Shown: piece by piece, positions 924 through 27,632 of the stretch
How positions within the stretch are numbered: the first letter of the stretch is position 1
Layout: the number at the start of each line of letters is the position of its first letter
Assembly: GCA_964648295.1 (NCBI GenBank)
Contig: CAZYNH010000004.1
Span: 613 to 64,612, forward strand
Length of the DNA: 64,000 nt
Reading direction: 5' to 3'
Source of the DNA: an uncultured Bacteroidia bacterium
GTDB taxonomy: Bacteria > UBA4055
Notes under the pieces: generated by a model
The model's input: only the letters and a program-made list of their open reading frames with translations
Databases searched by the model: none
Told to the model about the DNA's origin: nothing
Made by a program: the position numbers and the translations under genes

Positions 924-1011
924 AAATGGATTATTTTTAACTTGATTATGGCTTGTTTTTTTAATATAGTTAAAGAAGCACAATATCGCGCCGATAACGG
1001 AGAATGGACAA

Positions 1012-2598
1012 TTGGTAAGTAAAAGTTCCATAAATGTATTGCTTGTTGAGGAGAACGAAGATCATGCAATTTTGATAAGCAACTCATTTTTCAAGTACGG
1101 AGAAAAATATAATTTAATATCAGCCGATTCATTAAAAAAAGCTTTCGAATATTTTGACGATAAAACAGACATAATCGTAACTAATCTTTATCTGCCCGAC
1201 GGCAGCGGTATTGAGTTTCTTAAGAACAAATCTATTTGTGATGATATTCCTGTTATCGTTCTCGAAAGCTATGTGGACCAGGAAACAGTCGTAAAACTGC
1301 TTAAATCGGGAATTTTTGATTATGTGGGTAAATCAGCAGACATATTTGATTCTCTTCCGGAAAAAATTGATAAATATATTCAGTTGAGGGATTTAAAAAG
1401 GGAAAGGAGAAGGATATCCGAGCAGCAGAACATGCTCAGTATAGCTATAAAACACTCGTCAGAGGTTATTCTTGTTACTGACGAAAAAGGTATTATCGAA
1501 TTTGTCAATCCGGCGTTTGAAAAAACCACAGGTTATTCAGCTGATGAAGTAGTTGGTAAATCTCCCTCAATACTCAAAAGCGGCCAGCACGATAAAAATT
1601 TTTATGATGGCCTGTGGAAAACAATAAAATCAGGAAAACCGTGGAAAGGTCATCTGATAAATAAAAGAAAAGACGGATCAATATTTGAAGAGGACGCTTC
1701 CATCTCCCCTGTTTTTGGTGAAAAAGGTGTAATTACTAATTACGTGGCTTTGAAAAGAGATATTTCCGAATTAATAAATATTGAGAATCAACTCAGGCAT
1801 GCGCAAAAAATGGAAGGCATAGGCACTCTTGCCGCAGGGATTGCGCATGAAATCAATACACCGCTGCAATATTTGAATGACAACACTCTATTTATCAAAG
1901 AATCCTTCAAGGCGATGTGCGAGGCAATATCGGAGATAAAGAAGATAGCTGCCGAAAAGGATGCCGATAATATGGGCAGTAAGCTAAACGATATTATCAG
2001 AAAAAATAAGCTGGAGTACCTTGTTGATGAAATTCCTAATGCTCTGGATGAAAATCTGAACGGGATCAAAATAGTTCGTAAAATTGTAACAGCGATGAAG
2101 AATTTCTCCCATCCCGGGTTGAAGACAATGCAGAAAGCTGATATTAACGAAGCGATCAAGTCCACAATAACTATTACAAAAAATGTATGGAAATATAACG
2201 CGGAAATAGTTACCGATCTTATGGATAAACTCCCCGAGGTGAGCTGTCACATTGGAGACATAAACCAGGTATTCTTGAACATGATAACAAATTCCTGTGA
2301 CGCGATAGCTGAAAAAAGTAAAGATGATAAGGGAACAATCCGAATTTCAACATCCTGCGACAACAGTTATGTTTATATTACTATTGAAGACAACGGAAAT
2401 GGAATTCCAAAAGATATCAAAGACAAAATATTCCAACCTTTTTTTACAACAAAACAAGTTGGAAAAGGGACGGGACAGGGCCTTGCTTTAAGTTATGACA
2501 TTATCGTGAATAAACATAACGGGGAGATCAAGGTTGAATCAGAGCCCGGAACAGGAACAAAGTTTACAATTAAATTACCTGTTGAACCTAATGAATAA
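1012..2598 (+). CDS. Hybrid sensor histidine kinase: atypical receiver - PAS - HisKA - HATPase_c
   Basis: Receiver-like N-terminus ([11 protein letters not shown] ... [13 protein letters not shown]), PAS ([21 protein letters not shown]), H-box ([12 protein letters not shown]), ATPase G-boxes ([20 protein letters not shown]). Start is a TTG in the track. Confidence 0.85.
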
Positions 2599-2618
2599 AT
2601 ATTAAAACGGAGATCAAT

Positions 2619-3821
2619 ATGAACAAAAATTTCAGAATTCTGTTTGTTGACGATGAGGCACCGGTTCTTAACGGTATCAGGCGGATATTTCAGGCAAGAA
2701 GAAGCAACTGGGAACTGGTTTTCGCATCAAGCGGGAAAGAAGCAATTCAGAAGGTTTCTGTAATAGATTTCGACCTGATCGTTACAGACGGAAAAATGCC
2801 CGGAATGAGCGGAAGCGAGATGCTTAGAGAAATGAAGGTCCAGGGACTGACAAAAGATATTCCCACAATAATGCTGACGGGTTATGTTGACGACGACATG
2901 AGAAAGGAAGCTCTTGAGTGCGGGATAATCGAATTTGTCAATAAACCCGTTATTCCCGACGAGTTCGTACTCAGAATTGAAAATGTGCTGAACTTCAAAA
3001 TGATGCATGACGAGCTCAAAACTTCGACTGAGCAACTCACCACCGTAAACAGCGAGTTAAACAGGCTCTACGAGATAATAAGTACTCAAAAGAAAGAACT
3101 TGAAGAGCTTAATGAAATGAAAAGTCAATTCATTGAAATCGCGATGAACGAATTCAGAAGCTCAACAAAAGAGATATCTGAATATACTTCAGGATTAAGA
3201 GGATTGATGAACCCTGAAACAGATAAAGAAAAAATTGTGATAACTGAACGAATTATTCAGAGTGTTTCCGAACTGTCCGGAGTATACAGGAAGATCGTTA
3301 ATATTTCAGATATTACAACCGGAACCTTAAAACTTAATTATTCCCGGTCAAATGTTCTTAAATTTTTCAATGAGCTCATTGAGAATTCATCCCATGTCGC
3401 AGAGAAAAAGAATATTAAATTGATTTCTGAGCATGACAATATCCTGCCTGTAGAAAACTATATGGATACGAACAAAATATGGATAGCTGTTTCAAAACTA
3501 CTTGAAAATGCCGTAAAATTCTCCGAAACTACGAATAAAGTAGATTTTGGAATGAAATATTCGGACAATATGCTTAAGTTCATAATAAAGGACTACGGTA
3601 TAGGGATGAATGATGATCAGATGAGGAATCTGTTCTCATTCAACAACAGTGATAATGAAAACAAACAGGGTGTCAGCCTGCCTCTTGTTAAAAAAATTAT
3701 TGACGCTCATAAAGGTAATATATGCGTTGAGAGTAAATTCGGCGGCGGAACAAAATTTACCGTCTCGATACCTGTACTGGAAACAATTCCCGGAGAACTT
3801 GATAATGGGTCCGAATCATAA
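2619..3821 (+). CDS. Receiver domain fused to a histidine-kinase-like module lacking the phospho-acceptor His (putative pseudo-kinase)
   Basis: Canonical REC (ILFVDDE, LIVTDGKMPGMSG, EFVNKP), coiled-coil linker, DHp-like segment with Asn at the His position (FIEIAMNEFRSS), HATPase N-box and G1 present (LLENAVKFS, IKDYGIGM). RBS GGAG before the ATG. Confidence 0.75.
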   Translation: MNKNFRILFVDDEAPVLNGIRRIFQARRSNWELVFASSGKEAIQKVSVIDFDLIVTDGKMPGMSGSEMLREMKVQGLTKDIPTIMLTGYVDDDMRKEALECGIIEFVNKPVIPDEFVLRIENVLNFKMMHDELKTSTEQLTTVNSELNRLYEIISTQKKELEELNEMKSQFIEIAMNEFRSSTKEISEYTSGLRGLMNPETDKEKIVITERIIQSVSELSGVYRKIVNISDITTGTLKLNYSRSNVLKFFNELIENSSHVAEKKNIKLISEHDNILPVENYMDTNKIWIAVSKLLENAVKFSETTNKVDFGMKYSDNMLKFIIKDYGIGMNDDQMRNLFSFNNSDNENKQGVSLPLVKKIIDAHKGNICVESKFGGGTKFTVSIPVLETIPGELDNGSES

Positions 3822-5601
3822 GCTCAATTCTTTCTTCAAGAACTACTTCGTTTATCTCTCGATCTTCACGATTGAGATAATCTGTGTCGTTGCCTATTTT
3901 ACTTATAAAAATATTAACTTGCTCGCCAATTCCGCGCTTGTTGAAAAATACGGCCTTTCTAAGCTTTATGCTGATGACATTGATCAATTTTTGGAGGCTT
4001 ACAAGGCTACCGTAAGTCAATATTATGTAATGGCGGGCATTGTAATAGCATCGGTTGCAGCTTTTGCCGTAATCATTCACTATCTGATGAAAAAAAGGAT
4101 GACCGATGTCGAAAAAATGAACGCTCTTGAAGATCTGACAAGGGATACTTCAAAGATACTCAAGAGCGAGATCAAATACCGTTCTCTTTTTGAGAACAAC
4201 GGTACCGCTATACTCGTAGTCGGTGACGACGAGAATATAAGCGACTGCAATGAGAAATTCAGCGAACTTATAGGTTATTCCAAAGAAGAGATGATCAGAA
4301 ATATGCATTGGAGTAAAATTGTCCATCATGAAGATATCGAAAGGGTCAAAGGTTACGACAAGCTGAGAAGAACGAATCCCGCCAAGGCTCCTGCCGAATA
4401 TATGATGAAACTGAGAAGGAAAGACGGAACATACAGGCAGGTGATAGTCAATGTCATTGTGCTTCAGGGTACAGAGCAGCTAGCTTCCGTAATAGATATA
4501 ACCGATATGATCGAAAAAGACAGAGCTTTAAGGGAAAATCAGGAACTCCTTAATCAGGCACAGGAGATAGCCTCCATGGGCAGCTGGACCTATTATCCCG
4601 AAAACGATGAGCTTAAAGTATCAAAAGAATTCCTGAAAATCCTGGGTATTGACAAGATCACAGAACCCTTAACTCTGACATATCTGAAAAACCGGTTTGG
4701 GTTTGATCAGTTTTATAATGAAGTGTCAGGATTGAATAACTCCGCAGCCGGCTTAGACAAAGAAATTACTTATCTGGATGAAAAATCGCCTCTGTCAGAC
4801 AAAACCAAATATTTTAAGCTCAAAGCCAGAGCAGGATCAACAGCCGAGAAAGAATTGAAAATTACGGGCATAATTTTGGACATTACAGACAGAAAAAAGA
4901 TCGAAAATGAGATAAATAGGGCAAACGAGGAAATGAAAAACCTTATTTATGTTACAACTCATGATCTGCAGATACCGCTTATCTCAATAGAGGGCTTCTC
5001 TAATCTTCTTTTAAGATCATGCCAGAATATTGAGATCACTCAGGAAGCAAAAGATTACCTTGAAAGAATAAAATCGAATGTTAAAACTATGAGTTCGATG
5101 TTTAAGAATTTCTTTGACATCTCAAAGATTACCGCGATAAAGAATCCTTTTGAATACATAAAAACTTCCGATCTTATTAACCAGGTGGCAAGTGAGATGC
5201 GGATACTGACAGACAAATACGGATCTTCAGTTAAAATTGACTGCGGCAATCTCTTACCCGATATATATGGGGACAGAGAAAATCTTAGGCTCGTTTTTTA
5301 CCATTTGGTTTCTAACGGCATTATTTACGGCGGCAAAACCGTGACTGCCGGTTATGAAAAAAGTAAAGGGTTCTTTATAAAAGACGACGGCACCGGAATA
5401 TGTACAGATGATCTGGAGAGAATTTTCCTGCCCGGAATAAAACTTGAAAAAGAAGAGAATTATGAGGGCTCCGGCATGGGCTTGACTATATGCAGAAAAG
5501 TTATTGAGCTGCACAACGGAAAAATATGGGCTGAATCTGATGGAAAAGGCAAAGGAACAACAATTTTCTTCACACTTAGTAATGAACTAATCAGGGATTA
5601 A
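3805..5601 (+). CDS. Membrane-anchored PAS sensor histidine kinase
   Basis: Start refined from track ORF 3649 to the ATG at 3805 (MGPNHK), 17 nt overlap with the upstream stop. N-terminal TM helices, two PAS-like regions, H-box (THDLQIPL), HATPase (IKDDGTGI, GSGMGLTICRKV). Confidence 0.8.
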   Translation: MGPNHKLNSFFKNYFVYLSIFTIEIICVVAYFTYKNINLLANSALVEKYGLSKLYADDIDQFLEAYKATVSQYYVMAGIVIASVAAFAVIIHYLMKKRMTDVEKMNALEDLTRDTSKILKSEIKYRSLFENNGTAILVVGDDENISDCNEKFSELIGYSKEEMIRNMHWSKIVHHEDIERVKGYDKLRRTNPAKAPAEYMMKLRRKDGTYRQVIVNVIVLQGTEQLASVIDITDMIEKDRALRENQELLNQAQEIASMGSWTYYPENDELKVSKEFLKILGIDKITEPLTLTYLKNRFGFDQFYNEVSGLNNSAAGLDKEITYLDEKSPLSDKTKYFKLKARAGSTAEKELKITGIILDITDRKKIENEINRANEEMKNLIYVTTHDLQIPLISIEGFSNLLLRSCQNIEITQEAKDYLERIKSNVKTMSSMFKNFFDISKITAIKNPFEYIKTSDLINQVASEMRILTDKYGSSVKIDCGNLLPDIYGDRENLRLVFYHLVSNGIIYGGKTVTAGYEKSKGFFIKDDGTGICTDDLERIFLPGIKLEKEENYEGSGMGLTICRKVIELHNGKIWAESDGKGKGTTIFFTLSNELIRD

Positions 5602-5607
5602 TGTAAA

Positions 5608-7476
5608 ATGGCCATGAATTTATTTAGAATAAAAGAATTCCCGTCTGAAAAATCTTATCAGGATGCGGAGCTTCACTTATCAAAACAGGGTAAAAACTTT
5701 GTATTCATATGTAAACTGGAAGGAAAATATTTTGCGCAGTCTGACGATAATATATACGGAGCTTTTGACTCGGTAGAAAATGTAACATTTAGAAAAGAAG
5801 GAAAAATATTCGCCTTCAAGTCTTCAACTTTTTCAAAAAAATTAGGGGTTATAAAAGACGAAAATCAGGACTCTTTATACATTAACAATAAAATATTGGG
5901 CCCGTTCACAAAAATAAGGGATTTCAAAATAAACGACAATCTAACATATTACATATGGTATGAAACCTTCGGGAATTCGTATGTTATTATCAACAATAAC
6001 AAATTGGGAAGCTTTAAAAGCGTATATCAGGTAACTATGGCTCAGGACGGAACATCGTATGCTTTGATATACAAAGACGGCGGAAAAAAATATTTGCGAA
6101 TTAATGATGAAATATTTGGAGGATACGAAGAAATATTCGACTTTGTCTGCGATTATGAAAAAGGTTTTACCGGTTTTGTTTTCAAAAATTTATCAGGCGA
6201 GTATTACGCAAGAATTAATAACACGGAGATAGGTCCGTTCGGGAGTTGTACGGGTCTCAATTATTTTGCGGACATAAATAAATATCAGATTGAATACAAA
6301 AAAGACGCCGCAAATTTCATACAGATCAACGAAAGTGTTTTCTCGGGATCGGATACATATCAGGTAGAATTGATAAACGAATCTCTGGCTGTAATTAAAT
6401 GCTTCAAAGACAAATTGAGTTCTTATAATATCGTTGCCTGGGAGATCGGTTCTTTTAACGATGTTATTGAGTATCGGATAAGTAATTCAGGAAAGAAATT
6501 CATCTTTGTGTATGTAAAATTCAACCAGTATTTTGTTGTAGCCGGTGATTACGAATATGGCCCGTACAAAAAAGTCTCAAACTTATCAATAAGCCCGAAC
6601 GGAGAGAATTATTCATTTATTTTTACAAATCAGCATTACAATTATTATGCCAATATAAACGGGAATACTTACGGACCTTACATCTTAATAAACGAGACAG
6701 CTGTATCTGATTCACCCTCCGCCTTCGGATTTATTTTCCAGAGAAACTCTAAGTATTTTGTTAACATTTCCGACACGATACACGGAATGTATGATTCTGC
6801 TTTAAATTTAAAACTGTCACCCGACGGTTCCCTTTATTCATACATGTTCACTAAAAAAATAAAAATAAATCAGCTTTATTCAAAGCTGCAAAGTTATTTG
6901 TCACTTAATGGTGAAGTATCTGAAAATGACATAGCTATAATAGATCTTCAGAGAAACTCAATGCAAATAGAAGCAATCGTATTTAAAAAGAACTCAAAAT
7001 GGTATATCAGCCTTAACGAGACTATGTTCGGCCCTTATGACCATATAGCTGACTGGAGATTTTTAACCGACGAAACGCTTTTTTCATTCAGGTTCAAAAA
7101 CCTGCAATCTGATTTCTACAATCTTCAAATAAACGGCAGAACATATTATTCCCGAAACAAAAATCTGCAGGTACATTCACCCGTATTCAGCCGGGACGGA
7201 ACAAAATTTGCCTTTATTCATTATTCCGACATCCATTATTACATACAAATATGCGATCAAACCTACGGCCCTTTTGATCATGCCGACCTGCCGACTTTCT
7301 CACCGGACAGTAAAATGGCAGTATTCAGGTACATTGAGTCAAAAAAGACATATTTAAACATAAACGGCATGAAGACCGGACCTTTCGGAGTGGCTGAATA
7401 CACATTCTCTGACGGAAAGCTTTATACATGTTATCTTCAGGACAAGACGATCATAATTGACGAGATCACATGGTAA
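5608..7476 (+). CDS. Hypothetical protein with about 13-14 degenerate tandem repeats of ~37 aa (possible beta-propeller-like fold)
   Basis: Repeat consensus roughly YY-x-IN-x3-YGPY/F ... SPDG-x-Y-F, PD40-like but no confident family match. No signal peptide or TM helix. Last gene of the plus-strand kinase operon. Confidence 0.5.
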   Translation: MAMNLFRIKEFPSEKSYQDAELHLSKQGKNFVFICKLEGKYFAQSDDNIYGAFDSVENVTFRKEGKIFAFKSSTFSKKLGVIKDENQDSLYINNKILGPFTKIRDFKINDNLTYYIWYETFGNSYVIINNNKLGSFKSVYQVTMAQDGTSYALIYKDGGKKYLRINDEIFGGYEEIFDFVCDYEKGFTGFVFKNLSGEYYARINNTEIGPFGSCTGLNYFADINKYQIEYKKDAANFIQINESVFSGSDTYQVELINESLAVIKCFKDKLSSYNIVAWEIGSFNDVIEYRISNSGKKFIFVYVKFNQYFVVAGDYEYGPYKKVSNLSISPNGENYSFIFTNQHYNYYANINGNTYGPYILINETAVSDSPSAFGFIFQRNSKYFVNISDTIHGMYDSALNLKLSPDGSLYSYMFTKKIKINQLYSKLQSYLSLNGEVSENDIAIIDLQRNSMQIEAIVFKKNSKWYISLNETMFGPYDHIADWRFLTDETLFSFRFKNLQSDFYNLQINGRTYYSRNKNLQVHSPVFSRDGTKFAFIHYSDIHYYIQICDQTYGPFDHADLPTFSPDSKMAVFRYIESKKTYLNINGMKTGPFGVAEYTFSDGKLYTCYLQDKTIIIDEITW

Positions 7477-9780: not shown

Positions 9781-10189
9781 TTTTTTTCATAAATTCGTCG
9801 ATACTCTTAAAAACATCGAAAAAATCGCCGAGATCCATAGGTTTTGTAATATATTCGCTTGCCTTGTACCTGTAACAGCTGTTGATATCGCTCTCGCTGT
9901 TCGAAGTGGAAAAAACTATTACGGGTAATGATTCCGTCTTGGGTTCATTTTTTAGAATCTGAAGAATCTCAAGCCCGGTCATGCCAGGCAGGTTCAGATC
10001 CAGAAGTATCACATCCGGTCTCGGGTTCTTTTCCTCATACAGATATTCGAGAGCCTGATCGCCGTTGTATAGGTGGACAATACGGGATTCAGAACCGTTA
10101 TGAGCAAGAGCTTCCCGCGCCAGCACGGCATCACCCTCGTTATCCTCCACGAGCAGGATCAGATATTTTTTGGTTCTACACATTTTCAT
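9752..10189 (-). CDS. Single-domain response regulator (CheY/Rcp1-like receiver)
   Basis: LILLVEDNEGD, DVILLDLNLPGMTG, VIVFSTSN, YITKP. No output domain. Confidence 0.85.
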   Translation of the reverse strand: MKMCRTKKYLILLVEDNEGDAVLAREALAHNGSESRIVHLYNGDQALEYLYEEKNPRPDVILLDLNLPGMTGLEILQILKNEPKTESLPVIVFSTSNSESDINSCYRYKASEYITKPMDLGDFFDVFKSIDEFMKKNDERRCKNG

Positions 10190-13288: not shown

Positions 13289-13296
13289 GAAATTCC

Positions 13297-16733: not shown

Positions 16734-16745
16734 CAGCGCACCTCT

Positions 16746-18284: not shown

Positions 18285-18323
18285 TTGTTATATCTCGCTT
18301 AGCTTTATTTCCTGCATTAAGAA

Positions 18324-20195: not shown

Positions 20196-20199
20196 TTGA

Positions 20200-20643
20200 T
20201 TACGCTTCGCTTATCTCCGGATTCTCCTCGTTCAGAATACCCCAGAAGTATCCTATACTTTTGACAGCTTTAAAGTACTGATCGATATCTATAGGCTTGA
20301 CCACATAAGCTGACGCGCCGGCCTGATAAGATTCGATCACATCATGTTCGTAATTTGATGAACTGAACATTACGACCGGGATCTTTTTTAAAATTTCGTC
20401 CCTTTTGACTTCTTTTAAAAATTCGACGCCGTCCATTCTCGGCATCTTTTTGTCGAGTATTATGACAGCAGGATTTTCGGGCTGCCTGCCTTCGAACTTC
20501 CCCTTTCTTAAAAGGAAGTCGATCCCTTCAGCGCCGTCGCTGATTACAGCGATCATTCCTTTAAAACCCTCTCTCAAAGCCCTGACCGTAAGCTCCACAT
20601 CATTCTGATCATCTTCGATCAGCAGGATGAATTTTGAGTTCAT
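20200..20643 (-). CDS. Single-domain response regulator (CheY/Rcp1-like receiver)
   Basis: ILLIEDDQNDVE, VIILDKKMPRMDG, VVMFSSSNYE, YVVKP. Confidence 0.85.
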   Translation of the reverse strand: MNSKFILLIEDDQNDVELTVRALREGFKGMIAVISDGAEGIDFLLRKGKFEGRQPENPAVIILDKKMPRMDGVEFLKEVKRDEILKKIPVVMFSSSNYEHDVIESYQAGASAYVVKPIDIDQYFKAVKSIGYFWGILNEENPEISEA

Positions 20644-20644
20644 T

Positions 20645-23221
20645 TTATTTCCCTCCCCCGTTTTGTACCGGCAAAGTGAAGTAGAAAGACGCGCCCTTGC
20701 CCTCTCCGTCCGACTCAGCCCATGTTCTTCCGCCGTGCCTTGAAATTATTCTTCTTACATTCGCAAGTCCTATGCCTGTTCCCGGAAATTCTTTTTCGAG
20801 ATGCAGCCTCTGGAAAATCCCGAACAGTTTGTGCTTGAATTCAGGATTGAATCCGACCCCGTTGTCTGTTATGGAAAATATATATTCTCCGTTCTTCTCA
20901 TCGCAGCTGACGGATATCTCTGCCGGAGCTTTTCCTTTTGTATATTTGCAGGCATTATCTATCAGATTTTTCCATACGATCGTAATCAGGTTCCTGTCAG
21001 CATTTACTGCCGGCATATCGCCAGTGCGTATTTCAACATTACGGTTATCTTTACAGTCTTTATAAGAATCGAGCACTGATCTGAGCACTTCACCCATATT
21101 GAACTTAGATATAAATATCTCCTGCCTGCCCGTTCTTGAAAGCATCAGCAGGTCGTCTATCAGTCTTTCCATCCTGTGAGCGCTTGAAGTTATCCTTGAA
21201 AATGTTTCTTTCGACCTTTCGTTCAATACTTCCGGATTTTCTTTCAAAAAGAAGTCCGTGAACCCGATAATATGCCTTACTGGAGCTCTTAAATCATGTG
21301 AGATCGAATAACTGAAAGATTCAAGTTCTTTATTTGCATGCTCAAGCTGGGATGTTCTTTCCGCGACTTTTATTTCAAGTTCCGCATTGAATTCTCTCAG
21401 CTTTTCCTCAATTCTCTTTCTTTCAGTTATATCGTAGAAGACACCGTAAGTGCCTATAACATTCCCTTTTTCGTCCAGTTCGGGGCTCGCGGCGACCTGT
21501 ATAGTCTTTTTAGTGCCTTTCGCTGTTATTATATCGAGTTCATACCTTGTTGATTGACCTTTCTGCCTGTTTGATGTTTCAGCGAGTATTTTTTCTTTTG
21601 TCTCACCTGAAATAAAATCCAATAGCGACCTGTTTGTAAGACCGCCTCTTTCAACCTCGAATATCCTTTCAGCGCTTTCGTTAGTAAAAATAAAATTCTC
21701 GTTTTTATCTACTATCCCAATTCCGTCGTTAATATTATGAATAAGCCTGGAATACTTTTCTTCATTATCCTTCAGCTCCTTTTCGATCCTTTTACGTTCG
21801 GTAATATCCCTGAAAATGGACTGATAGCTTCCGTCTGTCATCATCTTGGTTTTCATTTCAATATTAACAATCGCATTGCCCGGCTTTAAAATGTCTCTTT
21901 CCGTAACTACCGTTCTGCCTTCATTCAACAGATCGAACCTCAGGGGATTTTTTTCAATGCTTTCTTTAGTGAAAGGTACCGCTGTTACATATTTGCCGAT
22001 CAGCTCTTCTTTTTTCATTCCTATCAGCGAGCATGCCATCTCATTGACTTCGGTTATATAGCCGTCGTGGGTACCGAGAAGTATCCCGTCAGCTCCGAAT
22101 TCGATCAGGTTCCTGAACCTTTCTTCCGATATTGCCAGCTCTTCTTTGTGCTTAAGCTCTTCAAGTGCTTCTTTAGCCTTCTCTTTCCGGTATTTGTAGT
22201 AAAGAATTACCGAACCCGTAAGGAAAAGAGCGGCAAGTAAAGAAAGCGCAAACTTTGCTCTTTTATGCTCCCCGGCAAGATGGTCTTCGTACAAAAATCC
22301 CTCTATTTCGAAATCCTGATCTATCATGCCCACTCTGATAAAAGTCTGGGCTATATGATCCCATCGCCCCCTGCTCATGTTGCCCAGATCTAACAGCTCA
22401 GGCATTATAAGTTTTTTCATCTGCCTGTACTCATACATCAGATGCTCATATTTCAGGCCCGGTTTATATTTCAATATTATTTTGATCGTCTCTTCAGGAT
22501 GATCCATTGCATAGCGCCACCCTTTGAGAGAAGCGTCACGAAAGGCTTTGACCTTTTCCGGATCTTTTTTTATCAACTTTTCGGATGTAAAGAGGCAGTC
22601 CCCGTAAAAATCTACGCCATAAGTAACGGGTCTGATGTAGCCGAATGTGTTTTCAGTCTGCCCGGGAAGGTATGTCATGTCGGTAATGTATCCTGTTGAG
22701 GCGTCAGCCTTACCTTCAAGAACATCCTGGTAATTTCCGTTGAACTCGATGATCTCTACTTTATCTATAAGCCCTTCGTTGAGAAGCATGGACCTGATTT
22801 CTACATTCTTTAAGCCCATCATTATTTTCTTTCCTGTAAGCTGAGAAAGATATTCGATGCCGCTTTCTTTGTTGACGATCAGTGCTACAGGAGAATGCTG
22901 GAAGACCGCAGCGAGCACTGTTACCGGAAGCCCTTTTGATCTGTCAACAAGGATCGAGGGCGTCTGAACACCGTAGGAAGCCCTGCCTGAAACCACTTCA
23001 TCCGCGACATCCGTGTAAGGCCCCCCCTCTATTATCTCAACATCAAAACCGGCCTTTTCATAAAACCCCAGCTCTTTAGCTGCGTAATAACCCGCAAACT
23101 GGTACTGATGATACCAGCGCAGCCGGAGTTTTATTTTATCTTTCTCATCCGTACCGGCATTCAAAGCTGACTGCATTAGAAAGATCAGCAAAAAGAAAAT
23201 AATTACATTTTTTTTCTTCAA
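20645..23221 (-). CDS. Sensor histidine kinase with periplasmic NMT1/SsuA-like binding domain, TM helix, PAS domains, HisKA, HATPase_c
   Basis: Signal peptide; periplasmic domain (LRLRWYHQYQFAGYYAAKELGFYEKAGFDVEI); TM helix; PAS; HisKA (YSISHDLRAPVRHI); HATPase (ITDNGVGF, GTGIGLANVRRI). Confidence 0.8.
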   Translation of the reverse strand: MKKKNVIIFFLLIFLMQSALNAGTDEKDKIKLRLRWYHQYQFAGYYAAKELGFYEKAGFDVEIIEGGPYTDVADEVVSGRASYGVQTPSILVDRSKGLPVTVLAAVFQHSPVALIVNKESGIEYLSQLTGKKIMMGLKNVEIRSMLLNEGLIDKVEIIEFNGNYQDVLEGKADASTGYITDMTYLPGQTENTFGYIRPVTYGVDFYGDCLFTSEKLIKKDPEKVKAFRDASLKGWRYAMDHPEETIKIILKYKPGLKYEHLMYEYRQMKKLIMPELLDLGNMSRGRWDHIAQTFIRVGMIDQDFEIEGFLYEDHLAGEHKRAKFALSLLAALFLTGSVILYYKYRKEKAKEALEELKHKEELAISEERFRNLIEFGADGILLGTHDGYITEVNEMACSLIGMKKEELIGKYVTAVPFTKESIEKNPLRFDLLNEGRTVVTERDILKPGNAIVNIEMKTKMMTDGSYQSIFRDITERKRIEKELKDNEEKYSRLIHNINDGIGIVDKNENFIFTNESAERIFEVERGGLTNRSLLDFISGETKEKILAETSNRQKGQSTRYELDIITAKGTKKTIQVAASPELDEKGNVIGTYGVFYDITERKRIEEKLREFNAELEIKVAERTSQLEHANKELESFSYSISHDLRAPVRHIIGFTDFFLKENPEVLNERSKETFSRITSSAHRMERLIDDLLMLSRTGRQEIFISKFNMGEVLRSVLDSYKDCKDNRNVEIRTGDMPAVNADRNLITIVWKNLIDNACKYTKGKAPAEISVSCDEKNGEYIFSITDNGVGFNPEFKHKLFGIFQRLHLEKEFPGTGIGLANVRRIISRHGGRTWAESDGEGKGASFYFTLPVQNGGGK

Positions 23222-23231
23222 CGATACTCCT

Positions 23232-25088
23232 TTAATTTTTCGGCAGACTGAAATAGAAGCACGCGCCTTTTCCCTCTCCTTCGGATTCGCCTCTTACACT
23301 TCCGCCGTGCCTCGACACTATTCTTTTAACAGTAGCAAGGCCTATCCCGGTTCCGGGAAAATCCTTCTCGGAATGCAGCCTCTGGAAAACCCCGAACAGC
23401 TTCTGAGAGAACTGCGGATCGAAACCCGCTCCGTTATCTTTAACGAAATACTCGTACCCGTTGCCAATATCGTTACAGCCTATGCTTATTATGGCATTTT
23501 TGTTCTGCGAAGTATATTTGAAAGCGTTCCCGATCAGATTTTCCCAAACAAGCCTGAACAGCGCGGGATCGCATTCTACAGGCGGAAGTGCTGATATTTT
23601 CCATTCTATTTTCCTGTGAGGCTCTGCAGAAGTGATCTCTCTGATGATAAACTCCGCTAACGGTTTCATATTCGTCCGCTTGGATGAAAGTTCCACCCTG
23701 CCTGTTCTGGAAAATTTTAACAGATCATCAATGAGCCTTTCCATTTTATCGGCTGAATATCGGATCTTTTCGATAGCCGATGCCTGTTCTGGAAGGATGC
23801 TTTTACCTAAAGACTTCGATAAAATGTCCGAAAATCCGGATATGTGCCTTACGGGCGCTCTCAGATCGTGCGAGACAGAGTAGCTGAAAGATTCGAGCTC
23901 TTTATTCAGATATTCCAGCTGGAGTGTTCTCTGGATCACTTTATCCTCGAGAGATTCGTTTATCCGTTTAATCTCTTTTTCGGCTTCCATCCGGAAGGTA
24001 ACATCCCTGACTATGGCCTGAAGATAAGTTTTGCCTTTCAGGACCACCCTGTTCAGAGAGACCTCCGCGTCAAAATCGGCGCCTGTCTTTTTCCTGTGCT
24101 TCCAGTAAAACCTTTGCGGCCTTCCTGCCAGAGCCTCGTTTATGTGCTCAAGTGCGGACATCACCGTGTTTCTTCCGTCAGGCTGGACATGCGGCGAAAA
24201 TTCCATCGGCTTGTGGTTGACCATCTCGTTCCTGTCCGCGCACTCGAACATTCTGACCGCCTGATCATTGCACTCGATAAATGTATCGCCGTCCATAAGG
24301 TAGATCGCGTCGTTCGATTCCTCAAAGAGCGTTCTGTATTTTTCCTCGTTCTCCTCAAGTTCCCGTTCTATCCTTTTTCTTTCGGTAATGTCGCGGTAAA
24401 TAGACTGATATGATCCGTCCTCCATCATTTTGGTCTTCATCTCGATGATTATCTCGGACCCGTCCCGCCTTCGTATGGCTCTTTCACTTATGACGGTCTT
24501 ACCTCCCTTTAAAAGATCGAACCTAAACGGCGATTTTTCGATGCTTTCTTTTGTGAAAGGCATTTTGCTTATGTGAAGGCTTAAGATCTCTCTTTTGCTC
24601 ATTCCGAAAAGTTCGCAGGCGGCCTGATTCGCCTCAGTTATGTAGCCTTCGTGAGAACCCAGCAGTATCCCGTCCGCGGCGAATTCAATTGTTCTTCTGA
24701 ATTTTTCCTCTGAGTCTTTCATACCCTTAAAATAAATGTCCTTTTCGGAAATATCCTCCGCCGTGACAATCATTCCGCAGTATTTCCCGTTATCCAGAAG
24801 AGGCGTCATCCAGCCTCTGTGAACGAATTCTTTTCCGGCGGAGTCTTTCAGCCTTACCTCGTACTCGCCCGGGAACAGGTTCCTCTTAACTTTTCCGTAA
24901 CACTCAAGAAATTCCTTATTGCCGGGTCTGTCCATGTCTTTGAATACTTCAAGACCTGTAAATCGCTCGGACGAAACTCCCGCTATGACTGCCATAGCCT
25001 TGTTTATATAAACCACTCTGTCATCAGGATCGGTCACCCATACACCTGACGGAAGTTCGTCGAGGGTCTTTTTCAGCAAGTCATTCAT
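23232..25088 (-). CDS. Cytoplasmic multi-PAS sensor histidine kinase
   Basis: No TM helix; about three PAS regions, the middle one close to a PAS of the preceding gene; HisKA (YSVSHDLRAPVRHI); HATPase (VKDNGAGF, GTGIGLATVKRI). Confidence 0.85.
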   Translation of the reverse strand: MNDLLKKTLDELPSGVWVTDPDDRVVYINKAMAVIAGVSSERFTGLEVFKDMDRPGNKEFLECYGKVKRNLFPGEYEVRLKDSAGKEFVHRGWMTPLLDNGKYCGMIVTAEDISEKDIYFKGMKDSEEKFRRTIEFAADGILLGSHEGYITEANQAACELFGMSKREILSLHISKMPFTKESIEKSPFRFDLLKGGKTVISERAIRRRDGSEIIIEMKTKMMEDGSYQSIYRDITERKRIERELEENEEKYRTLFEESNDAIYLMDGDTFIECNDQAVRMFECADRNEMVNHKPMEFSPHVQPDGRNTVMSALEHINEALAGRPQRFYWKHRKKTGADFDAEVSLNRVVLKGKTYLQAIVRDVTFRMEAEKEIKRINESLEDKVIQRTLQLEYLNKELESFSYSVSHDLRAPVRHISGFSDILSKSLGKSILPEQASAIEKIRYSADKMERLIDDLLKFSRTGRVELSSKRTNMKPLAEFIIREITSAEPHRKIEWKISALPPVECDPALFRLVWENLIGNAFKYTSQNKNAIISIGCNDIGNGYEYFVKDNGAGFDPQFSQKLFGVFQRLHSEKDFPGTGIGLATVKRIVSRHGGSVRGESEGEGKGACFYFSLPKN

Positions 25089-25092
25089 TTAA

Positions 25093-27495
25093 TTATTCTC
25101 CGGTTTTCGGCAGTGTGAAATAGAAGCAGGCTCCTTTCCCTTCGCCTTCAGACTCTCCTCTTACAGCTCCTCCGTGCCTTTCGACAATGCGCCTTACATT
25201 TGCCAGACCGATCCCGGTTCCCTCGTATTCTGATTTGCCGTGAAGCCTGTAGAACACTCCGAAAAGTTTATCTGAGTAATTCATATCGAACCCCGCGCCG
25301 TTGTCTCTGACAAAAAATTCAAAACAGTCCCCCTTATCTTTACATCCAATCATTATTTCCGGATTTGGAGTTTTTGAACTATATTTTAAAGCATTTTCTA
25401 TCAGGTTAAGCCAAACAGTCCTGATAAGGTTCTCGTCGCAAAAAACAACCGCAGGCAGATCATTATACTCGATCGAAGCTTTTGAGTATTTTTCTTCACA
25501 TAGAAGTTTTTCTTTTAAATCTTTCAGAATATCCTGAATATTCACAGCTTTCCTGTTAAGGTCAGCGCGACCTGTTTTTGAATACTCAAGCAGATCGTCT
25601 ATCAAAGCTCCCATATCAAGAGCGCTTGAAGAAATCTTATTCAGATATTCAAGAGCTTCTTTGCCGCAGTTTGAACATATCTGCTCCATTGAGCGGGCGA
25701 AGCCGTTTATGTGGCGAAGGGGCGCTCTTAAATCGTGCGATACGCTGTACGCGAACGACTCCAGTTCCCTGTTCGACAACTCAAGTTCTTTAGTGCGTTC
25801 GACAACCTTTCTAGAAAGCTTTTCGTTCAGGATTTTGATCTCCTCCTGAGCCGCTTTGATATCTGAAACATCATAGAACATCACTGCCATTCTGTTTTTT
25901 TCTATGCCGAAAGCGACGATGTTAAAGCAGCCTTTGATACCCTTATGGTCATAAGGAAAGCTGTCAGTAGTCCAGTTAACCCCTTCCGCAGCGACTTTTT
26001 TATACATCTCCGGGATATCGGTGACGGCAAGCATCGGGAACGCCTCTTCTATTGTTTTTCCCAAGAACCTGCCGTGATCGGTCCCGATTATTCTGTCGGC
26101 CGCAGGATTGTAACCGGAAAAGACAAGACTGCCGGCACTTGTAAGTTCGTAGACATAAATTCCAAACGGGGCTGATTCGACTATCTTTCTGAAAGAACTT
26201 TCGCTGGCTATTCTTTTTTCTTCAGCATTGTATTTCTCGGTAACATCGGAAAAGACCATGATCACCCCGTGAATGTTCCCGCTTTGGTCTCTGATCGGAG
26301 CGGCGGAATCCGCTATCTGGAATTCCCTGCCGTCTCTGGCGATTAAAACCGTGTGGTTCGCAAGCCCGACGGTTTTTCCTTTTGCGATCACCAGTTCTGC
26401 GGGATTTATTACCTCCTGTCTCGTATCGGCATTCACTATCCTGAAGATTTCACTGAGGGGTTTTCCCATAGCTTCTTCAAGCTTCCATCCGGTAAGTTCC
26501 AGTGATGTTTTGTTCATGTTGACGATATTGCCGGATATGTCGGTGCTGATCACTCCGTCGCCGATGGATTCGAGCGTGATCCTCAGGTTCTCTTCGCTTT
26601 TGATCAGCGAAAGGGTCTTTTTCTTTATCTCCCGTTTAAGTATCAGCATAAAAAACGCAAGCACAATTAACGCTGAGATGATTATTAGCATCAACGATCT
26701 TAGCCATACCGGAAAAATATTTTTCTGAAAGGAGCTTTTATTGAATAAAGCGTCAAGCGCGGAATAATAAACGGATTTTTTGTCGGATTTTAACTCCGAA
26801 AGCCTGCGGTCCAGTCTTTCGATTATTTTATCGGCGTCGGGATTATTTTTCCTAAGAGCGTATTGCATTCTGGCCGGCTGAAGGATAACAGGTGTAGATT
26901 CAATTGAATAATATTTTTCATTATCGCTGCCGAAATCCTTGTCAACGAGTCCGGCGTCGATTGAACCCAGCTCGAGGTAACTGAAAATGTCTTTATAACT
27001 TTCGAGTTCAGCTACGGTGGCGTTTATCTGGAAATCCCTGAGCAGCCTTTTCAGCCCGTCGGGACCTTCAAGATCAAAACTGTTCCTGAGCCCGCCTATC
27101 CTCATATTCTCAAGATCGAGAATGCTCTGAATTACGGCGTTTTTGTTCCTGTATAATTTCGTCCAGCTGAGATATACCGTTTCGTTATTGAATGAATACT
27201 TCTGTTTCCTCGCGGGAGTCACGCCTGTATCTGTCATTATGTCAATATCACCGTTCTCGAGCCTGCGCAAGCATTCATCCCATGTCCCGTAAACCCATTT
27301 AAGATCCCAGTTCTCCTTTTCCGCTATCGCGACGGTTATCTCATACCAGAAACCGGCGAGTTTCCCGTTCTCGTCCATATAAATCTTTGGCGGGTTGTCG
27401 TAAGCACCCGCGCGGATAGTCTCCGCAGATGATACTGACAATGAGAATATTAAGAACAAAAATAAGAAATCCCTGAGAACTTTAGCTTTCATCAT
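25093..27495 (-). CDS. Sensor histidine kinase with periplasmic solute-binding (SBP family 3-like) domain, TM helix, PAS, HisKA, HATPase_c
   Basis: Signal peptide; periplasmic domain (ETIRAGAYDNPPKIYMDENGKLAGFWYEI); TM helix; PAS; HisKA (YSVSHDLRAPLRHI); HATPase (VRDNGAGF, GTGIGLANVRRI). Confidence 0.85.
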   Translation of the reverse strand: MMKAKVLRDFLFLFLIFSLSVSSAETIRAGAYDNPPKIYMDENGKLAGFWYEITVAIAEKENWDLKWVYGTWDECLRRLENGDIDIMTDTGVTPARKQKYSFNNETVYLSWTKLYRNKNAVIQSILDLENMRIGGLRNSFDLEGPDGLKRLLRDFQINATVAELESYKDIFSYLELGSIDAGLVDKDFGSDNEKYYSIESTPVILQPARMQYALRKNNPDADKIIERLDRRLSELKSDKKSVYYSALDALFNKSSFQKNIFPVWLRSLMLIIISALIVLAFFMLILKREIKKKTLSLIKSEENLRITLESIGDGVISTDISGNIVNMNKTSLELTGWKLEEAMGKPLSEIFRIVNADTRQEVINPAELVIAKGKTVGLANHTVLIARDGREFQIADSAAPIRDQSGNIHGVIMVFSDVTEKYNAEEKRIASESSFRKIVESAPFGIYVYELTSAGSLVFSGYNPAADRIIGTDHGRFLGKTIEEAFPMLAVTDIPEMYKKVAAEGVNWTTDSFPYDHKGIKGCFNIVAFGIEKNRMAVMFYDVSDIKAAQEEIKILNEKLSRKVVERTKELELSNRELESFAYSVSHDLRAPLRHINGFARSMEQICSNCGKEALEYLNKISSSALDMGALIDDLLEYSKTGRADLNRKAVNIQDILKDLKEKLLCEEKYSKASIEYNDLPAVVFCDENLIRTVWLNLIENALKYSSKTPNPEIMIGCKDKGDCFEFFVRDNGAGFDMNYSDKLFGVFYRLHGKSEYEGTGIGLANVRRIVERHGGAVRGESEGEGKGACFYFTLPKTGE

Positions 27496-27632
27496 GCCTC
27501 CGGATTATGTATCATAATGACAATATAATCTTTGTTCTCTCAAATTCAAGCAAAATAATTATTGTTTTTTTATAATCGCATAAGTCATAATAATTGTATA
27601 TATTACAGATCAAAATAAATCGGAACAGGATA

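What the first reader, a model, noticed from the sequence alone, without database searches (positions are those of the whole stretch)
1012..27495. Signalling island: 17 consecutive kinase, receiver and sensor genes with no encoded output domain
Two convergent blocks (plus strand 1012-7476, minus strand 27495-7477) hold 17 consecutive signalling genes, all but a 622-aa repeat protein: PAS-rich histidine kinases and hybrids, three 145-149-aa stand-alone receivers, two sensor-only proteins. Genes are packed with 1-29 nt overlaps and the two blocks end on adjacent bases (7476/7477). No DNA-binding, GGDEF/EAL, CheB/CheR or other effector domain was seen in any gene, so the output of the whole network is unassigned. 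The receivers resemble Rcp1-type partners of Cph1-type kinase modules (my recollection). The island looks AT-richer than the housekeeping genes downstream.
Basis: partly seen in the sequence, partly recalled or inferred. Interest (0 to 1): 0.7.

Follow-up and report, generated by a model that had tools for sequence, protein, structure and literature searches.

The report
Conserved two-component signalling gene supercluster
A 26-kb run of 16 tightly packed genes in an uncultured Delongbacteria genome holds 15 sensor-kinase, receiver and sensor genes and no conventional output domain; it is real and conserved in the lineage, but it is an enlarged example of a known kind of kinase-relay network.

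Summary
Positions 1012-27495 carry 16 genes, not 17, in two convergent operon-like blocks that abut at 7476/7477. Fifteen are two-component genes: 10 kinase-type proteins, 3 stand-alone receivers and 2 membrane PAS sensors without a kinase. One is a 622-aa cytoplasmic tandem beta-propeller. Pfam and NCBIfam found no DNA-binding, GGDEF/EAL/HD-GYP, CheB/CheR or Hpt domain, including in the leftover segments.

The three receivers are Rcp1/RcpA/bacteriophytochrome-regulator-like, and each sits directly after a kinase gene. No phytochrome sensor is present.

The region is AT-richer than the rest of the window (40.4% vs 45.1% GC). It is not a recently acquired island. Other Candidatus Delongbacteria contigs keep the same locus, with orthologues at 50-79% identity against 23-47% between in-window paralogues.

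Two conserved degenerate parts were found. The g01 receiver has Asn in place of the phospho-Asp. In g02 a receiver is fused to a kinase-like module with Asn in place of the phospho-His.

Most likely this is a many-kinase relay: kinases feed Rcp-like receivers and receiver-gated kinases, as in the BphP1-AgR-ExsG-ExsF and Lhf systems, with the final effector encoded elsewhere or reached by protein contacts. Interest is modest.

The parts
1..923 (+). FMN_bind + Fer4_5 membrane redox protein, cut off by the window start; conserved neighbour directly upstream of g01
   Evidence: Pfam FMN_bind 1.4e-12 and Fer4_5 5.4e-12. The frame is open back to base 3. The same gene (382-391 aa) lies directly upstream of the g01 orthologue in L006, L008, L009 and L010.
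1012..2598 (+). g01 (528 aa): pseudo-receiver, NifL-PAS1-like PAS domain and histidine kinase
   Evidence: Pfam Response_reg (weak, 44 bits), PAS and HATPase_c. The position of the phospho-Asp is Asn58, invariant in 5 orthologues, and the H-box [10 protein letters not shown] (His279) is invariant. NCBIfam nifL scores 177 bits on residues 144-267.
2619..3821 (+). g02 (400 aa): receiver with intact Asp57 fused to a kinase-like module that lacks the phospho-acceptor His
   Evidence: Pfam Response_reg and HATPase_c, no HisKA. The H-box reads IEIAMNEFR, with Asn177 where His is expected. This is conserved in 13 Delongbacteria orthologues down to 50% identity (one has Asp). The G2 box is degenerate. 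Distant REC-HisKA-HATPase relatives keep the His.
3805..5601 (+). g03 (about 598 aa from the ATG at 3805; the ORF opens at 3649): two transmembrane helices, PAS, HisKA and HATPase kinase
   Evidence: Pfam. Start candidates and hydrophobic segments. H-box VTTHDLQIPL. Orthologues are 595-603 aa.
5608..7476 (+). g04 (622 aa): cytoplasmic tandem beta-propeller protein made of SPDG/INGxxxGPY-type repeats; the only non-two-component gene
   Evidence: Pfam gives only a sub-threshold PD40 hit. NCBIfam gives a partial TmcD_fam hit, 56 bits against a cut-off of 440. The AlphaFold2 model is all-beta with mean pLDDT 89.4. The best Foldseek matches in the PDB are double beta-propellers, E 6e-11. No hydrophobic segment. 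Every named homologue is from Delongbacteria.
7477..9780 (-). g05 (767 aa): REC-PAS-PAS-HisKA-HATPase-REC hybrid kinase, last gene of the minus block
   Evidence: Pfam finds two Response_reg stretches, PAS, PAS_3, HisKA and HATPase_c. H-box GIAHDFNNLL. Both receivers keep the Asp. NCBIfam CckA scores 447 bits, below its cut-off of 1000. Orthologues are 59-70% identical.
9752..10189 (-). g06 (145 aa): Rcp-like stand-alone receiver directly after kinase g07
   Evidence: Pfam Response_reg only. Best solved structures are RcpA 1.1e-23, RcpB and Rcp1. Asp and Lys are conserved. Orthologues of 134-135 aa precede the g05 orthologue in every relative.
10176..11786 (-). g07 (536 aa): TM-PAS-PAS-HisKA-HATPase kinase
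   Evidence: Pfam. One hydrophobic segment at residues 8-26. H-box VSHDLQEPLR.
11783..13288 (-). g08 (501 aa): REC-PAS-HisKA-HATPase, a receiver-gated kinase directly after receiver g09
   Evidence: Pfam. Asp is present. H-box ASHDLQEPLR.
13297..13746 (-). g09 (149 aa): Rcp-like stand-alone receiver overlapping the stop of kinase g10 by 4 nt
   Evidence: Pfam. Best solved structures are the bacteriophytochrome response regulators 5brj (1.7e-39) and 5ic5, then RcpB. The L008 orthologue is 79% identical.
13743..16733 (-). g10 (996 aa): two periplasmic SBP_bac_3 domains, TM, PAS, HisKA and HATPase kinase (BvgS-like sensor layout without receiver or Hpt)
   Evidence: Pfam SBP_bac_3 9.6e-57 in two stretches. 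Hydrophobic segment at 490-508. The 103-aa linker is coiled-coil-like only.
16746..18284 (-). g11 (512 aa): six transmembrane helices and two PAS domains, no kinase
   Evidence: Pfam finds PAS only. Six hydrophobic segments. The N-terminal 217 aa and the C-terminal tail match no family.
18324..20195 (-). g12 (623 aa): 5TMR-LYT membrane domain and three PAS domains, no kinase
   Evidence: Pfam 5TM-5TMR_LYT 3.2e-27 plus PAS. NCBIfam sensory_box in three stretches. A 5TMR_LYT-PAS sensor-only gene occupies the equivalent place in relative L017.
20200..20643 (-). g13 (147 aa): Rcp-like stand-alone receiver, 1 nt after kinase g14
   Evidence: Pfam. Best solved structures are 5ic5 (3.1e-39) and 5brj, then RcpB and RcpA. 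The L006 orthologue is 68% identical.
20645..23221 (-). g14 (858 aa): periplasmic NMT1/THI5-like binding domain, TM, PAS-PAS, HisKA and HATPase kinase
   Evidence: Pfam NMT1 5.3e-48. It is the closest in-window paralogue of g15, at 47% identity. Orthologues with NMT1 occur in relatives.
23232..25088 (-). g15 (618 aa): soluble PAS x3, HisKA and HATPase kinase
   Evidence: Pfam. The kinase core matches 8f71 (2e-34), bacteriophytochrome kinase modules (6e-32) and HK853 (9e-27). Orthologues are 59-80% identical.
25093..27495 (-). g16 (800 aa): SBP_bac_3, TM, PAS, a degenerate PAS, HisKA and HATPase kinase; first gene of the minus block
   Evidence: Pfam. Hydrophobic segment at 268-286. Residues 423-578 give only weak PAS hits.

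Best explanation
This is a lineage-conserved two-component supercluster of Candidatus Delongbacteria that works as a many-kinase phosphorelay network. It is not a set of sensor-to-transcription-factor pairs.

Shown here: nine kinase modules keep the catalytic motifs, namely the H-box His and the N, G1 and G2 boxes. Their sensors are diverse: periplasmic solute-binding domains in g10, g14 and g16; membrane domains in g03 and g07; soluble PAS domains in g01, g05, g08 and g15. Seven receiver domains keep the phospho-Asp. Three of these are stand-alone Rcp-like receivers, each encoded directly after a kinase gene (g14-g13, g10-g09, g07-g06). Two of the three are followed by a kinase with an N-terminal receiver (g09-g08, g06-g05).

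Inferred: the kinases phosphorylate the adjacent Rcp-like receivers and the N-terminal receivers of g08 and g05. Phosphorylation of those receivers turns the next kinase up or down. The stand-alone receivers act as phosphate sinks, shuttles or dimerising adaptors. The kinase-less PAS membrane proteins g11 and g12 modulate neighbouring kinases by contact. In the + block, the competent kinases g01 (probable flavin/redox PAS) and g03 phosphorylate the receiver of g02. The His-less kinase-like domain of g02 is then that regulator's output and acts by binding other kinases or receivers, in the manner of DivL or RetS. The tandem beta-propeller g04 serves as a scaffold.

The final effector is either encoded outside the island or reached only by protein-protein contact. 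The C-terminal receiver of g05 would need an Hpt protein and a terminal regulator, and neither is present in the window.
For: Domain content, with no output domain found. Catalytic residues. Rcp-family identity of the three stand-alone receivers. Tight packing that fits two operons and translational coupling of kinase-receiver pairs. Conservation of g01-g06 in every relative, of g07-g10 in L008 and of g14-g13...g12-like...g10-like in L017, with orthologues at 50-79% identity. The His-to-Asn change in g02 and the Asp-to-Asn change in g01 are conserved. g04 is a confident tandem propeller without an enzyme domain. Experimental precedents for the wiring: the BphP1 / AgR (stand-alone, Rcp1-like) / ExsG (receiver-kinase inhibited by receiver phosphorylation) / ExsF cluster (PMC3899027); and the R. 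palustris Lhf system, in which the stand-alone receiver LhfD acts as a phosphate sink next to the hybrid kinase LhfE (PMC6879726). Further precedents, taken from titles and abstracts listed in search output: the DivL pseudokinase (PMC4211667), the MrrA receiver hub (PMC5964349) and multikinase networks (PMC5992135).
Against: No phosphotransfer, interaction or transcript data exist for these proteins, so partner assignments rest on gene order alone. Gene content of the distal minus block varies between relatives (L006 lacks g07, g09-g12 and g14). That variation would also fit a loose collection of independent kinases. No Hpt protein was found for the g05 C-terminal receiver. Only 64 kb of a contig of at least 508 kb was seen, so output regulators elsewhere cannot be counted. 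Promoter and terminator scans were at chance level and do not establish operon structure.
Confidence: 0.6

Rival explanations
1. The kinases are only co-located. The locus is a hot spot where sensor-kinase genes accumulate, and each kinase signals independently to a conventional response regulator encoded elsewhere in the genome. There is no integrated network.
For: The sensor domains are very diverse. The paralogues are old and diverged (23-47% identity). Several are no closer to each other than to kinases of other phyla. Content of the distal block differs between relatives. An NtrC-type regulator lies a few kb outside the array in one relative.
Against: Every junction is 39 nt or less, several genes overlap, and gene order is kept across species. 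Each of the three stand-alone receivers follows a kinase directly. Kinases with N-terminal receivers, a receiver fused to a pseudo-kinase and kinase-less sensors only make sense as parts of multi-step signalling.
Confidence: 0.25
2. The region is a horizontally acquired genomic island, as its lower GC content might suggest.
For: GC is 40.4% against 45.1% and GC3 is 43.6% against 54.0% relative to the other genes of the window. The known mobile or defence genes in the window are also AT-rich (37.8%).
Against: The same locus, with the same left neighbour (FMN_bind/Fer4_5, preceded by small ORFs and a TPR gene), occurs in several Delongbacteria contigs, with orthologue identities of 50-79%. No tRNA gene is present in the window. 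The only integrase-type genes found are the IS at 53.6-55.2 kb, about 26 kb from the island. Homologues of g04, g02 and the closest ones of g15 carry Delongbacteria names. The GC drop is mostly at third codon positions (GC1+2 38.7% vs 40.7%). The arrays in relatives are as AT-rich as, or slightly AT-richer than, their own flanks.
Confidence: 0.05
3. The locus is a chemotaxis-like adaptation pathway, with methylation-based output through CheB/CheR.
For: CheB_methylest-CheR fusion proteins lie inside the equivalent arrays of two relatives: L010 17305-19050 and the L017 gene from 14702 onward.
Against: The window has no CheA, CheW, MCP, CheB or CheR domain. The CheB-CheR fusions in the relatives lack a receiver and sit next to, or are fused with, PAS_10 multi-PAS modules; no CheA or CheW gene was called in those loci.
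Confidence: 0.03
4. The array is decaying: the sensor-only genes, the His-less kinase and the Asp-less receiver are remnants on the way to pseudogenes.
For: g11 and g12 lack kinases, g02 lacks the His and g01 lacks the Asp.
Against: All 16 reading frames are intact. The substitutions in g01 and g02 are fixed across orthologues that are otherwise 50-70% identical, with strong conservation of the surrounding motifs. Sensor-only PAS genes recur at equivalent places in relatives.
Confidence: 0.05

Closest known systems
Bacteriophytochrome-associated relay BphP1 / AgR / ExsG / ExsF (Rhizobium NT-26, Agrobacterium)
   Same: A kinase is followed by an Rcp1-like stand-alone receiver, a kinase with an N-terminal receiver and another stand-alone receiver, all in one cluster without an output domain. 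Receiver phosphorylation gates the second kinase (PMC3899027). The window repeats this motif as g10-g09-g08 and g07-g06-g05. Its stand-alone receivers belong to the same structural family.
   Different: There is no phytochrome sensor, since no gene has a GAF or PHY domain. The second-tier kinases are HisKA-type, not HWE. The motif is repeated and embedded in 16 genes with solute-binding and membrane sensors.
Rhodopseudomonas palustris Lhf system (BphP2, BphP3, LhfD/Rpa3017, LhfE/Rpa3018, LhfA)
   Same: Two kinases share a stand-alone receiver that acts as a phosphate sink, and a neighbouring redox-sensitive hybrid kinase carries the signal on (PMC6879726).
   Different: The Lhf operon encodes its own putative transcription regulator (LhfA). 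No such protein is encoded in the window's cluster.
Caulobacter DivJ/PleC - DivK - DivL - CckA network
   Same: Several kinases feed a stand-alone receiver. A kinase-like protein without the phospho-His is used as a sensor of receiver state (abstract of PMC4211667). The network also contains a PAS-PAS-kinase-receiver hybrid. g02 lacks the His and g05 has a CckA-like layout.
   Different: g05 scores 447 bits against a CckA cut-off of 1000, so it is not an orthologue. g02 has Asn rather than Tyr, and its N-terminus is a receiver rather than PAS domains. No ChpT, CtrA or Hpt is present.
Multikinase networks and stand-alone-receiver hubs (GacS/RetS in Pseudomonas; MrrA in Caulobacter)
   Same: Many kinases converge on few receivers. 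Kinase-kinase contacts and single-domain receivers integrate the signals (PMC5992135, PMC8498467, PMC5964349; abstracts listed).
   Different: Those networks are spread around the genome and end in known outputs (GacA/Rsm, PhyR). Here the parts lie in one 26-kb block and the output is unknown.
BvgS/EvgS-type Venus-flytrap sensor kinases
   Same: g10 has two periplasmic SBP_bac_3 domains, a membrane helix, a PAS domain and a kinase. The comparison with BvgS rests on my own knowledge of that family.
   Different: g10 has no C-terminal receiver or Hpt domain.

Membership tests
Rcp1/RcpA/bacteriophytochrome-response-regulator family of stand-alone receivers (g06, g09, g13) | A single receiver domain of about 140-150 aa with no output domain | tested here: met
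   145, 149 and 147 aa; Pfam finds Response_reg only.
Rcp1/RcpA/bacteriophytochrome-response-regulator family of stand-alone receivers (g06, g09, g13) | Closest sequence similarity is to solved members of the family rather than to CheY, Spo0F or DivK | tested here: met
   The top PDB hits are RcpA, RcpB, Rcp1, 5brj, 5ic5, 4zyl and 6xvu at E 1e-21 to 1e-39. CheY, Spo0F and DivK score 1e-10 to 1e-15.
Rcp1/RcpA/bacteriophytochrome-response-regulator family of stand-alone receivers (g06, g09, g13) | Phospho-acceptor Asp and the conserved Lys are present | tested here: met
   Alignment with CheY gives Asp at the D57 column and an invariant Lys at the position of CheY Lys109 in all three.
Rcp1/RcpA/bacteriophytochrome-response-regulator family of stand-alone receivers (g06, g09, g13) | C-terminal extension after helix 5 carrying the aromatic F/Y-W motif used in dimer contacts (feature recalled from the literature) | tested here: inconclusive
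   g09 has IGYYW and g13 has IGYFW, aligned with IEEFW of RcpA. g06 has IDEFM, without the Trp. Dimerisation itself cannot be tested here.
Rcp1/RcpA/bacteriophytochrome-response-regulator family of stand-alone receivers (g06, g09, g13) | Encoded directly downstream of the cognate kinase, which is a phytochrome | tested here: not met
   Each receiver does follow a kinase directly. However, none of those kinases has a GAF or PHY domain. The receivers therefore belong to the receiver family, but the systems are not phytochrome systems.
Cph1/bacteriophytochrome sensor kinases | PAS-GAF-PHY photosensory core | tested here: not met
   No GAF or PHY hit in any of the 16 proteins.
Cph1/bacteriophytochrome sensor kinases | Kinase core of the phytochrome-associated HisKA type | tested here: inconclusive
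   The g15 core matches bacteriophytochrome kinase modules at 6e-32, HK853 at 9e-27 and 8f71 at 2e-34. The preference is small and only g15 was tested.
Chemotaxis (Che) locus | CheA, CheW and MCP, with CheB/CheR | tested here: not met
   None were found in the window. CheB-CheR fusions occur only in relatives.
CckA-ChpT-CtrA phosphorelay | A CckA orthologue plus a histidine phosphotransferase and a terminal DNA-binding regulator | tested here: not met
   g05 scores 447 bits against the CckA cut-off of 1000. No Hpt or ChpT domain passes threshold and no DNA-binding regulator is present.
Histidine pseudokinases (DivL-like, His-less transmitter) | DHp-CA fold retained while the phospho-acceptor His is replaced, with the change conserved among orthologues | tested here: met
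   g02 has Asn177 in the H-box column in all 4 syntenic and 13 database orthologues (one has Asp). The N and G1 boxes are kept and G2 is degenerate. Absence of autophosphorylation cannot be tested here.
Horizontally acquired genomic island | Deviant composition together with mobility genes or a tRNA at the border and patchy distribution among relatives | tested here: not met
   Composition deviates. There is no tRNA and no integrase at the borders. The locus and its left flank are conserved in the relatives.

The most novel reading that the evidence does not exclude
The conserved + block (g01-g04 and the upstream FMN/Fe-S membrane protein) could be a previously undescribed signalling device. 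In it, a response regulator's output domain is a His-less kinase module (g02). That module would dock without phosphotransfer onto the Asp-less receiver of the redox-sensing kinase g01, or onto the neighbouring kinases, assembled on a dedicated tandem beta-propeller scaffold (g04). This core would act as the hub that reads out the whole variable kinase array by protein-protein contacts alone.
Probability: 0.12. Interest if true: 0.55.

Novelty: new member of a known kind. Interest (0 to 1): 0.3.

Why it matters
The locus shows that members of an uncultured phylum keep a 26-40 kb block of sensor kinases, Rcp-like stand-alone receivers and receiver-gated kinases with no conventional effector. 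That adds a compact, conserved example to the open question of how stand-alone receivers and multikinase networks produce an output. The conserved pairing of an Asp-less receiver (g01), a His-less kinase module fused to a live receiver (g02) and a lineage-specific tandem propeller (g04) is a concrete set of proteins to test for signalling by contact. It does not overturn anything known. Clusters of this logic have been characterised on a smaller scale, and no isolate of the organism came up in this work.

Tried and rejected
2. The metagenome scan with the g04 alignment gave only four loci.
3. Exact-protein look-ups failed for g06 and MscL, probably because of different start calls.
4. Rfam and tRNA scans of the window found nothing.
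5. Promoter and terminator pattern scans of 1-7700 were at chance level: 26 promoter-like sites against 25.8 expected, and 8 terminator-like sites against 5.1 expected. A TTGATT-17-TATAGT site at 942-970 ahead of g01, and hairpins inside g04 on the minus strand, are noted but carry no weight.
6. My first kinase alignment suggested that g01 lacks the H-box His. That was an artefact of where I cut the sequence; the orthologue alignment shows an invariant [10 protein letters not shown].
7. The unassigned segments were scanned for hidden domains: the g16, g03 and g10 linkers, the g11 and g12 tails, the g02 middle and the g11 membrane domain. Only weak PAS or coiled-coil noise appeared.
8. The only non-Delongbacteria-like g04 homologue (P0018) sits on a 3.9-kb contig with no informative neighbours.
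9. A literature search for Delongbacteria signalling found nothing relevant.
10. Recent in-situ duplication was considered and rejected. Only g14 and g15 (47% identity) look like a lineage-internal tandem pair.

Full report
**What is there**

Between 1012 and 27495 the window carries 16 open reading frames, not 17. Four are on the + strand: g01 1012-2598, g02 2619-3821, g03 3649/3805-5601 and g04 5608-7476. Twelve are on the - strand, g05 to g16, spanning 7477-27495. The two blocks converge and their stop codons touch at 7476/7477. Every junction is either an overlap of 4-29 nt or a gap of 0-39 nt, so no further gene fits. The largest overlaps depend on the start codon chosen; another gene caller gives 8 nt where I read 29 and 14.

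**Domain content (Pfam, NCBIfam, hydrophobicity)**

- g01: REC-PAS-kinase.
- g02: REC and a kinase-like module without a HisKA hit.
- g03: 2TM-PAS-HisKA-HATPase.
- g04: no family above threshold.
- g05: REC-PAS-PAS-HisKA-HATPase-REC.
- g06: REC only (145 aa).
- g07: TM-PAS-PAS-kinase.
- g08: REC-PAS-kinase.
- g09: REC only (149 aa).
- g10: SBP_bac_3 x2-TM-PAS-kinase.
- g11: 6TM-PAS-PAS, no kinase.
- g12: 5TMR_LYT-PAS x3, no kinase.
- g13: REC only (147 aa).
- g14: NMT1-TM-PAS-PAS-kinase.
- g15: PAS x3-kinase.
- g16: SBP_bac_3-TM-PAS-kinase.

No DNA-binding, GGDEF, EAL, HD-GYP, CheB, CheR, sigma-54 or Hpt domain was found. Scanning the unassigned stretches at E<=1 gave only weak PAS or coiled-coil noise. 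The central observation, a long run of signalling genes with no conventional output domain, is correct.

**Are the parts functional?**

Alignment with CheY shows the phospho-acceptor Asp and the conserved Lys in seven of the eight receiver domains. The g01 receiver has Asn at that position, and this Asn is invariant in five orthologues.

Nine kinase modules have an H-box His plus N, G1 and G2 boxes. I first thought g01 lacked the His. That was a cutting artefact, because its [10 protein letters not shown] motif is invariant.

g02 is different. Its H-box reads IEIAMNEFR, with Asn where the His should be. Its G2 box is degenerate and the stretch between G1 and G2 carries a deletion relative to His-containing relatives. 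This is conserved in 13 Delongbacteria orthologues down to 50% identity, one of which has Asp. More distant proteins with the same REC-HisKA-HATPase layout keep the His. g02 is therefore a live receiver fused to a conserved pseudo-kinase module, and g01 is a live kinase with a conserved pseudo-receiver.

The g01 PAS domain scores 177 bits against the N-terminal PAS region of the NifL model. From my knowledge of NifL, that is its flavin-binding redox sensor, so flavin-based redox sensing by g01 is an inference.

**The non-signalling gene**

g04 has homologues almost only in Delongbacteria. Its AlphaFold2 model is all-beta with mean pLDDT 89.4. It matches double beta-propeller proteins in the PDB at E down to 6e-11, with low TM-scores of about 0.2, which may reflect different relative placement of the two propellers. 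It has no hydrophobic segment, only a sub-threshold PD40 hit and a partial TmcD_fam hit. I read it as a cytoplasmic interaction scaffold, not an enzyme or a DNA binder.

**The receivers and the kinase type**

All three stand-alone receivers find RcpA, RcpB, Rcp1 and the bacteriophytochrome response regulators as their best solved relatives, at E 1e-21 to 1e-39. That is far better than CheY, Spo0F or DivK.

Each receiver lies directly after a kinase gene (g14-g13, g10-g09, g07-g06). Two are followed by kinases with N-terminal receivers (g09-g08, g06-g05).

The g15 kinase core matches bacteriophytochrome kinase modules only slightly better than HK853. No gene has GAF or PHY domains, so these are not phytochrome systems.

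**Organism and conservation**

The rest of the window is ordinary diderm-bacterial content: rpe, LptF/G, Mfd and MscL. Homologues of g04, g02 and g15 that carry names are from Candidatus Delongbacteria. The same DNA is present in a Logan assembly of run SRR5581382.

Contigs of other Delongbacteria keep the order FMN_bind/Fer4_5 gene, g01, g02, g03, g04, then convergent g05 and g06. Protein identities are 50-70%. L008 also keeps g07-g10. L006 keeps g08, g13, g15 and g16 but lacks g07, g09-g12 and g14. L017 keeps g14, g13, a 5TMR_LYT-PAS sensor and a double-SBP protein in the window's order. In one relative the array runs on for more than 30 kb, with further kinases and sensor-only proteins.

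In-window paralogues are only 23-47% identical, much less than orthologues, so the duplications are old. Only g14 and g15 look like a lineage-internal tandem pair. Kinases of other phyla are as close to g15 as most of its neighbours are.

**Composition**

The island genes have 40.4% GC and 43.6% GC3. The other chromosomal genes of the window have 45.1% and 54.0% (p about 0.001). The AT-richness is real, but it lies mainly at third codon positions. Given the conserved synteny, the absence of a tRNA gene and the absence of border mobility genes, it does not indicate recent transfer.

**How it most likely works**

The architecture is an iterated form of a module that has been studied experimentally. 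In Rhizobium NT-26, BphP1 phosphorylates the Rcp1-like stand-alone receiver AgR and the N-terminal receiver of the kinase ExsG. This phosphorylation inhibits ExsG, which in turn phosphorylates the stand-alone receiver ExsF. All four genes sit in one cluster without an output domain (PMC3899027). In R. palustris, two bacteriophytochromes share the stand-alone receiver LhfD as a phosphate sink, next to the redox-sensitive hybrid kinase LhfE (PMC6879726).

By analogy, I propose that the solute-, membrane- and PAS-sensing kinases of the minus block feed the three Rcp-like receivers and the receiver-gated kinases g08 and g05. The kinase-less sensors g11 and g12 would modulate neighbours by contact. 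The + block would use g01 and g03 to phosphorylate g02, whose His-less kinase-like domain acts by binding, as the pseudokinase DivL does (PMC4211667). g04 would be a scaffold.

The last step is not encoded here. The C-terminal receiver of g05 would need an Hpt protein and a terminal regulator. These steps are inferred from gene order and precedent, not shown.

**Rivals**

- Independent kinases that are merely co-located (about 0.25).
- A horizontally acquired island (about 0.05; contradicted by synteny).
- A Che-like methylation pathway (about 0.03; CheB-CheR fusions occur only in relatives).
- A decaying array (about 0.05; contradicted by conserved substitutions and intact frames).

**Verdict**

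The finding is real and carefully described, apart from the gene count and the island connotation. It is a large, conserved example of a known kind of system: multikinase relays with stand-alone Rcp-like receivers and receiver-gated kinases. A specialist would not be very surprised. The most interesting detail is the conserved trio of pseudo-receiver kinase, receiver-pseudokinase and lineage-specific tandem propeller.

Noticed in passing
window 2619-3821 (g02) and 1012-1401 (g01 receiver): g02 is a receiver fused to a kinase-like module with Asn in place of the phospho-His. The g01 receiver has Asn in place of the phospho-Asp. Both changes are fixed across Delongbacteria orthologues, which suggests a matched pair of non-phosphorylatable docking modules.
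   Followed up: partly
L010 17305-19050 and 14581-17196; L017 14702-17143: In two related Delongbacteria the equivalent array contains a CheB_methylest-CheR_N-CheR fusion protein without a receiver. In L010 it lies next to an 871-aa multi-PAS sensor-only protein that starts with PAS_10; in L017 the fusion continues into PAS_10/PAS domains in the same protein. The window has no such gene.
   Followed up: partly
L016 1-4284: In one relative the far end of the array is flanked by two N_methyl (pilin-like) genes, a 638-aa unknown protein and an NtrC-type receiver/sigma-54 activator. In the window that end is instead flanked by a peptidase and rpe.
   Followed up: no
window 7474-7479; L006 11893-11896; L008 11847-11869; L010 11878-11881: The convergent genes g04 and g05 have no intergenic space in any genome seen: they abut in the window and overlap by 4, 23 and 4 nt in the relatives. 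Any terminator must therefore lie inside the opposite gene.
   Followed up: partly
window 1-923: The FMN_bind/Fer4_5 membrane protein gene runs off the window start, and the frame is open from base 3. The ORF tool lists it as 48-923. It is the constant upstream neighbour of g01 in the relatives, where three small unknown ORFs and a TPR protein precede it.
   Followed up: partly
window 5608-7476: g04 gives a partial hit (56 bits, residues 449-582) to the NCBIfam model for TmcD, the uncharacterised subunit of the Desulfovibrio Tmc electron-transfer complex. This may reflect a shared repeat type.
   Followed up: no
window 62041-63339 (-): This is an orphan PAS-HisKA-HATPase kinase (432 aa) outside the island. 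No long open frame lies in the 660 bases upstream of it, so no receiver gene precedes it.
   Followed up: partly
window 35598-38112 (-): An AbiEii toxin and AbiEi antitoxin pair plus an ORF6N-domain protein lie in a 36% GC patch. This is a small defence or mobile insertion among housekeeping genes.
   Followed up: no
window 53650-55151 (-): An insertion-sequence-type pair is present: an HTH_Tnp_1 transposase part and an rve integrase-core part (IS3-like layout). It is followed by several short unassigned ORFs at 52.4-53.7 kb.
   Followed up: no
window 27594-30683 (+) and 42320-45388 (-): These are two large beta-propeller peptidases: Peptidase_MA with PD40 repeats, and a Tricorn-like S41 protease with PDZ. 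The first is divergently transcribed from the minus signalling block, across a 98-nt gap.
   Followed up: no
window 38747-40339 and 40069-41190 (-): The listed ORFs for the DUF7033 protein and LptG overlap by about 270 nt. This probably reflects an over-extended start for the downstream ORF rather than a true overlap.
   Followed up: no
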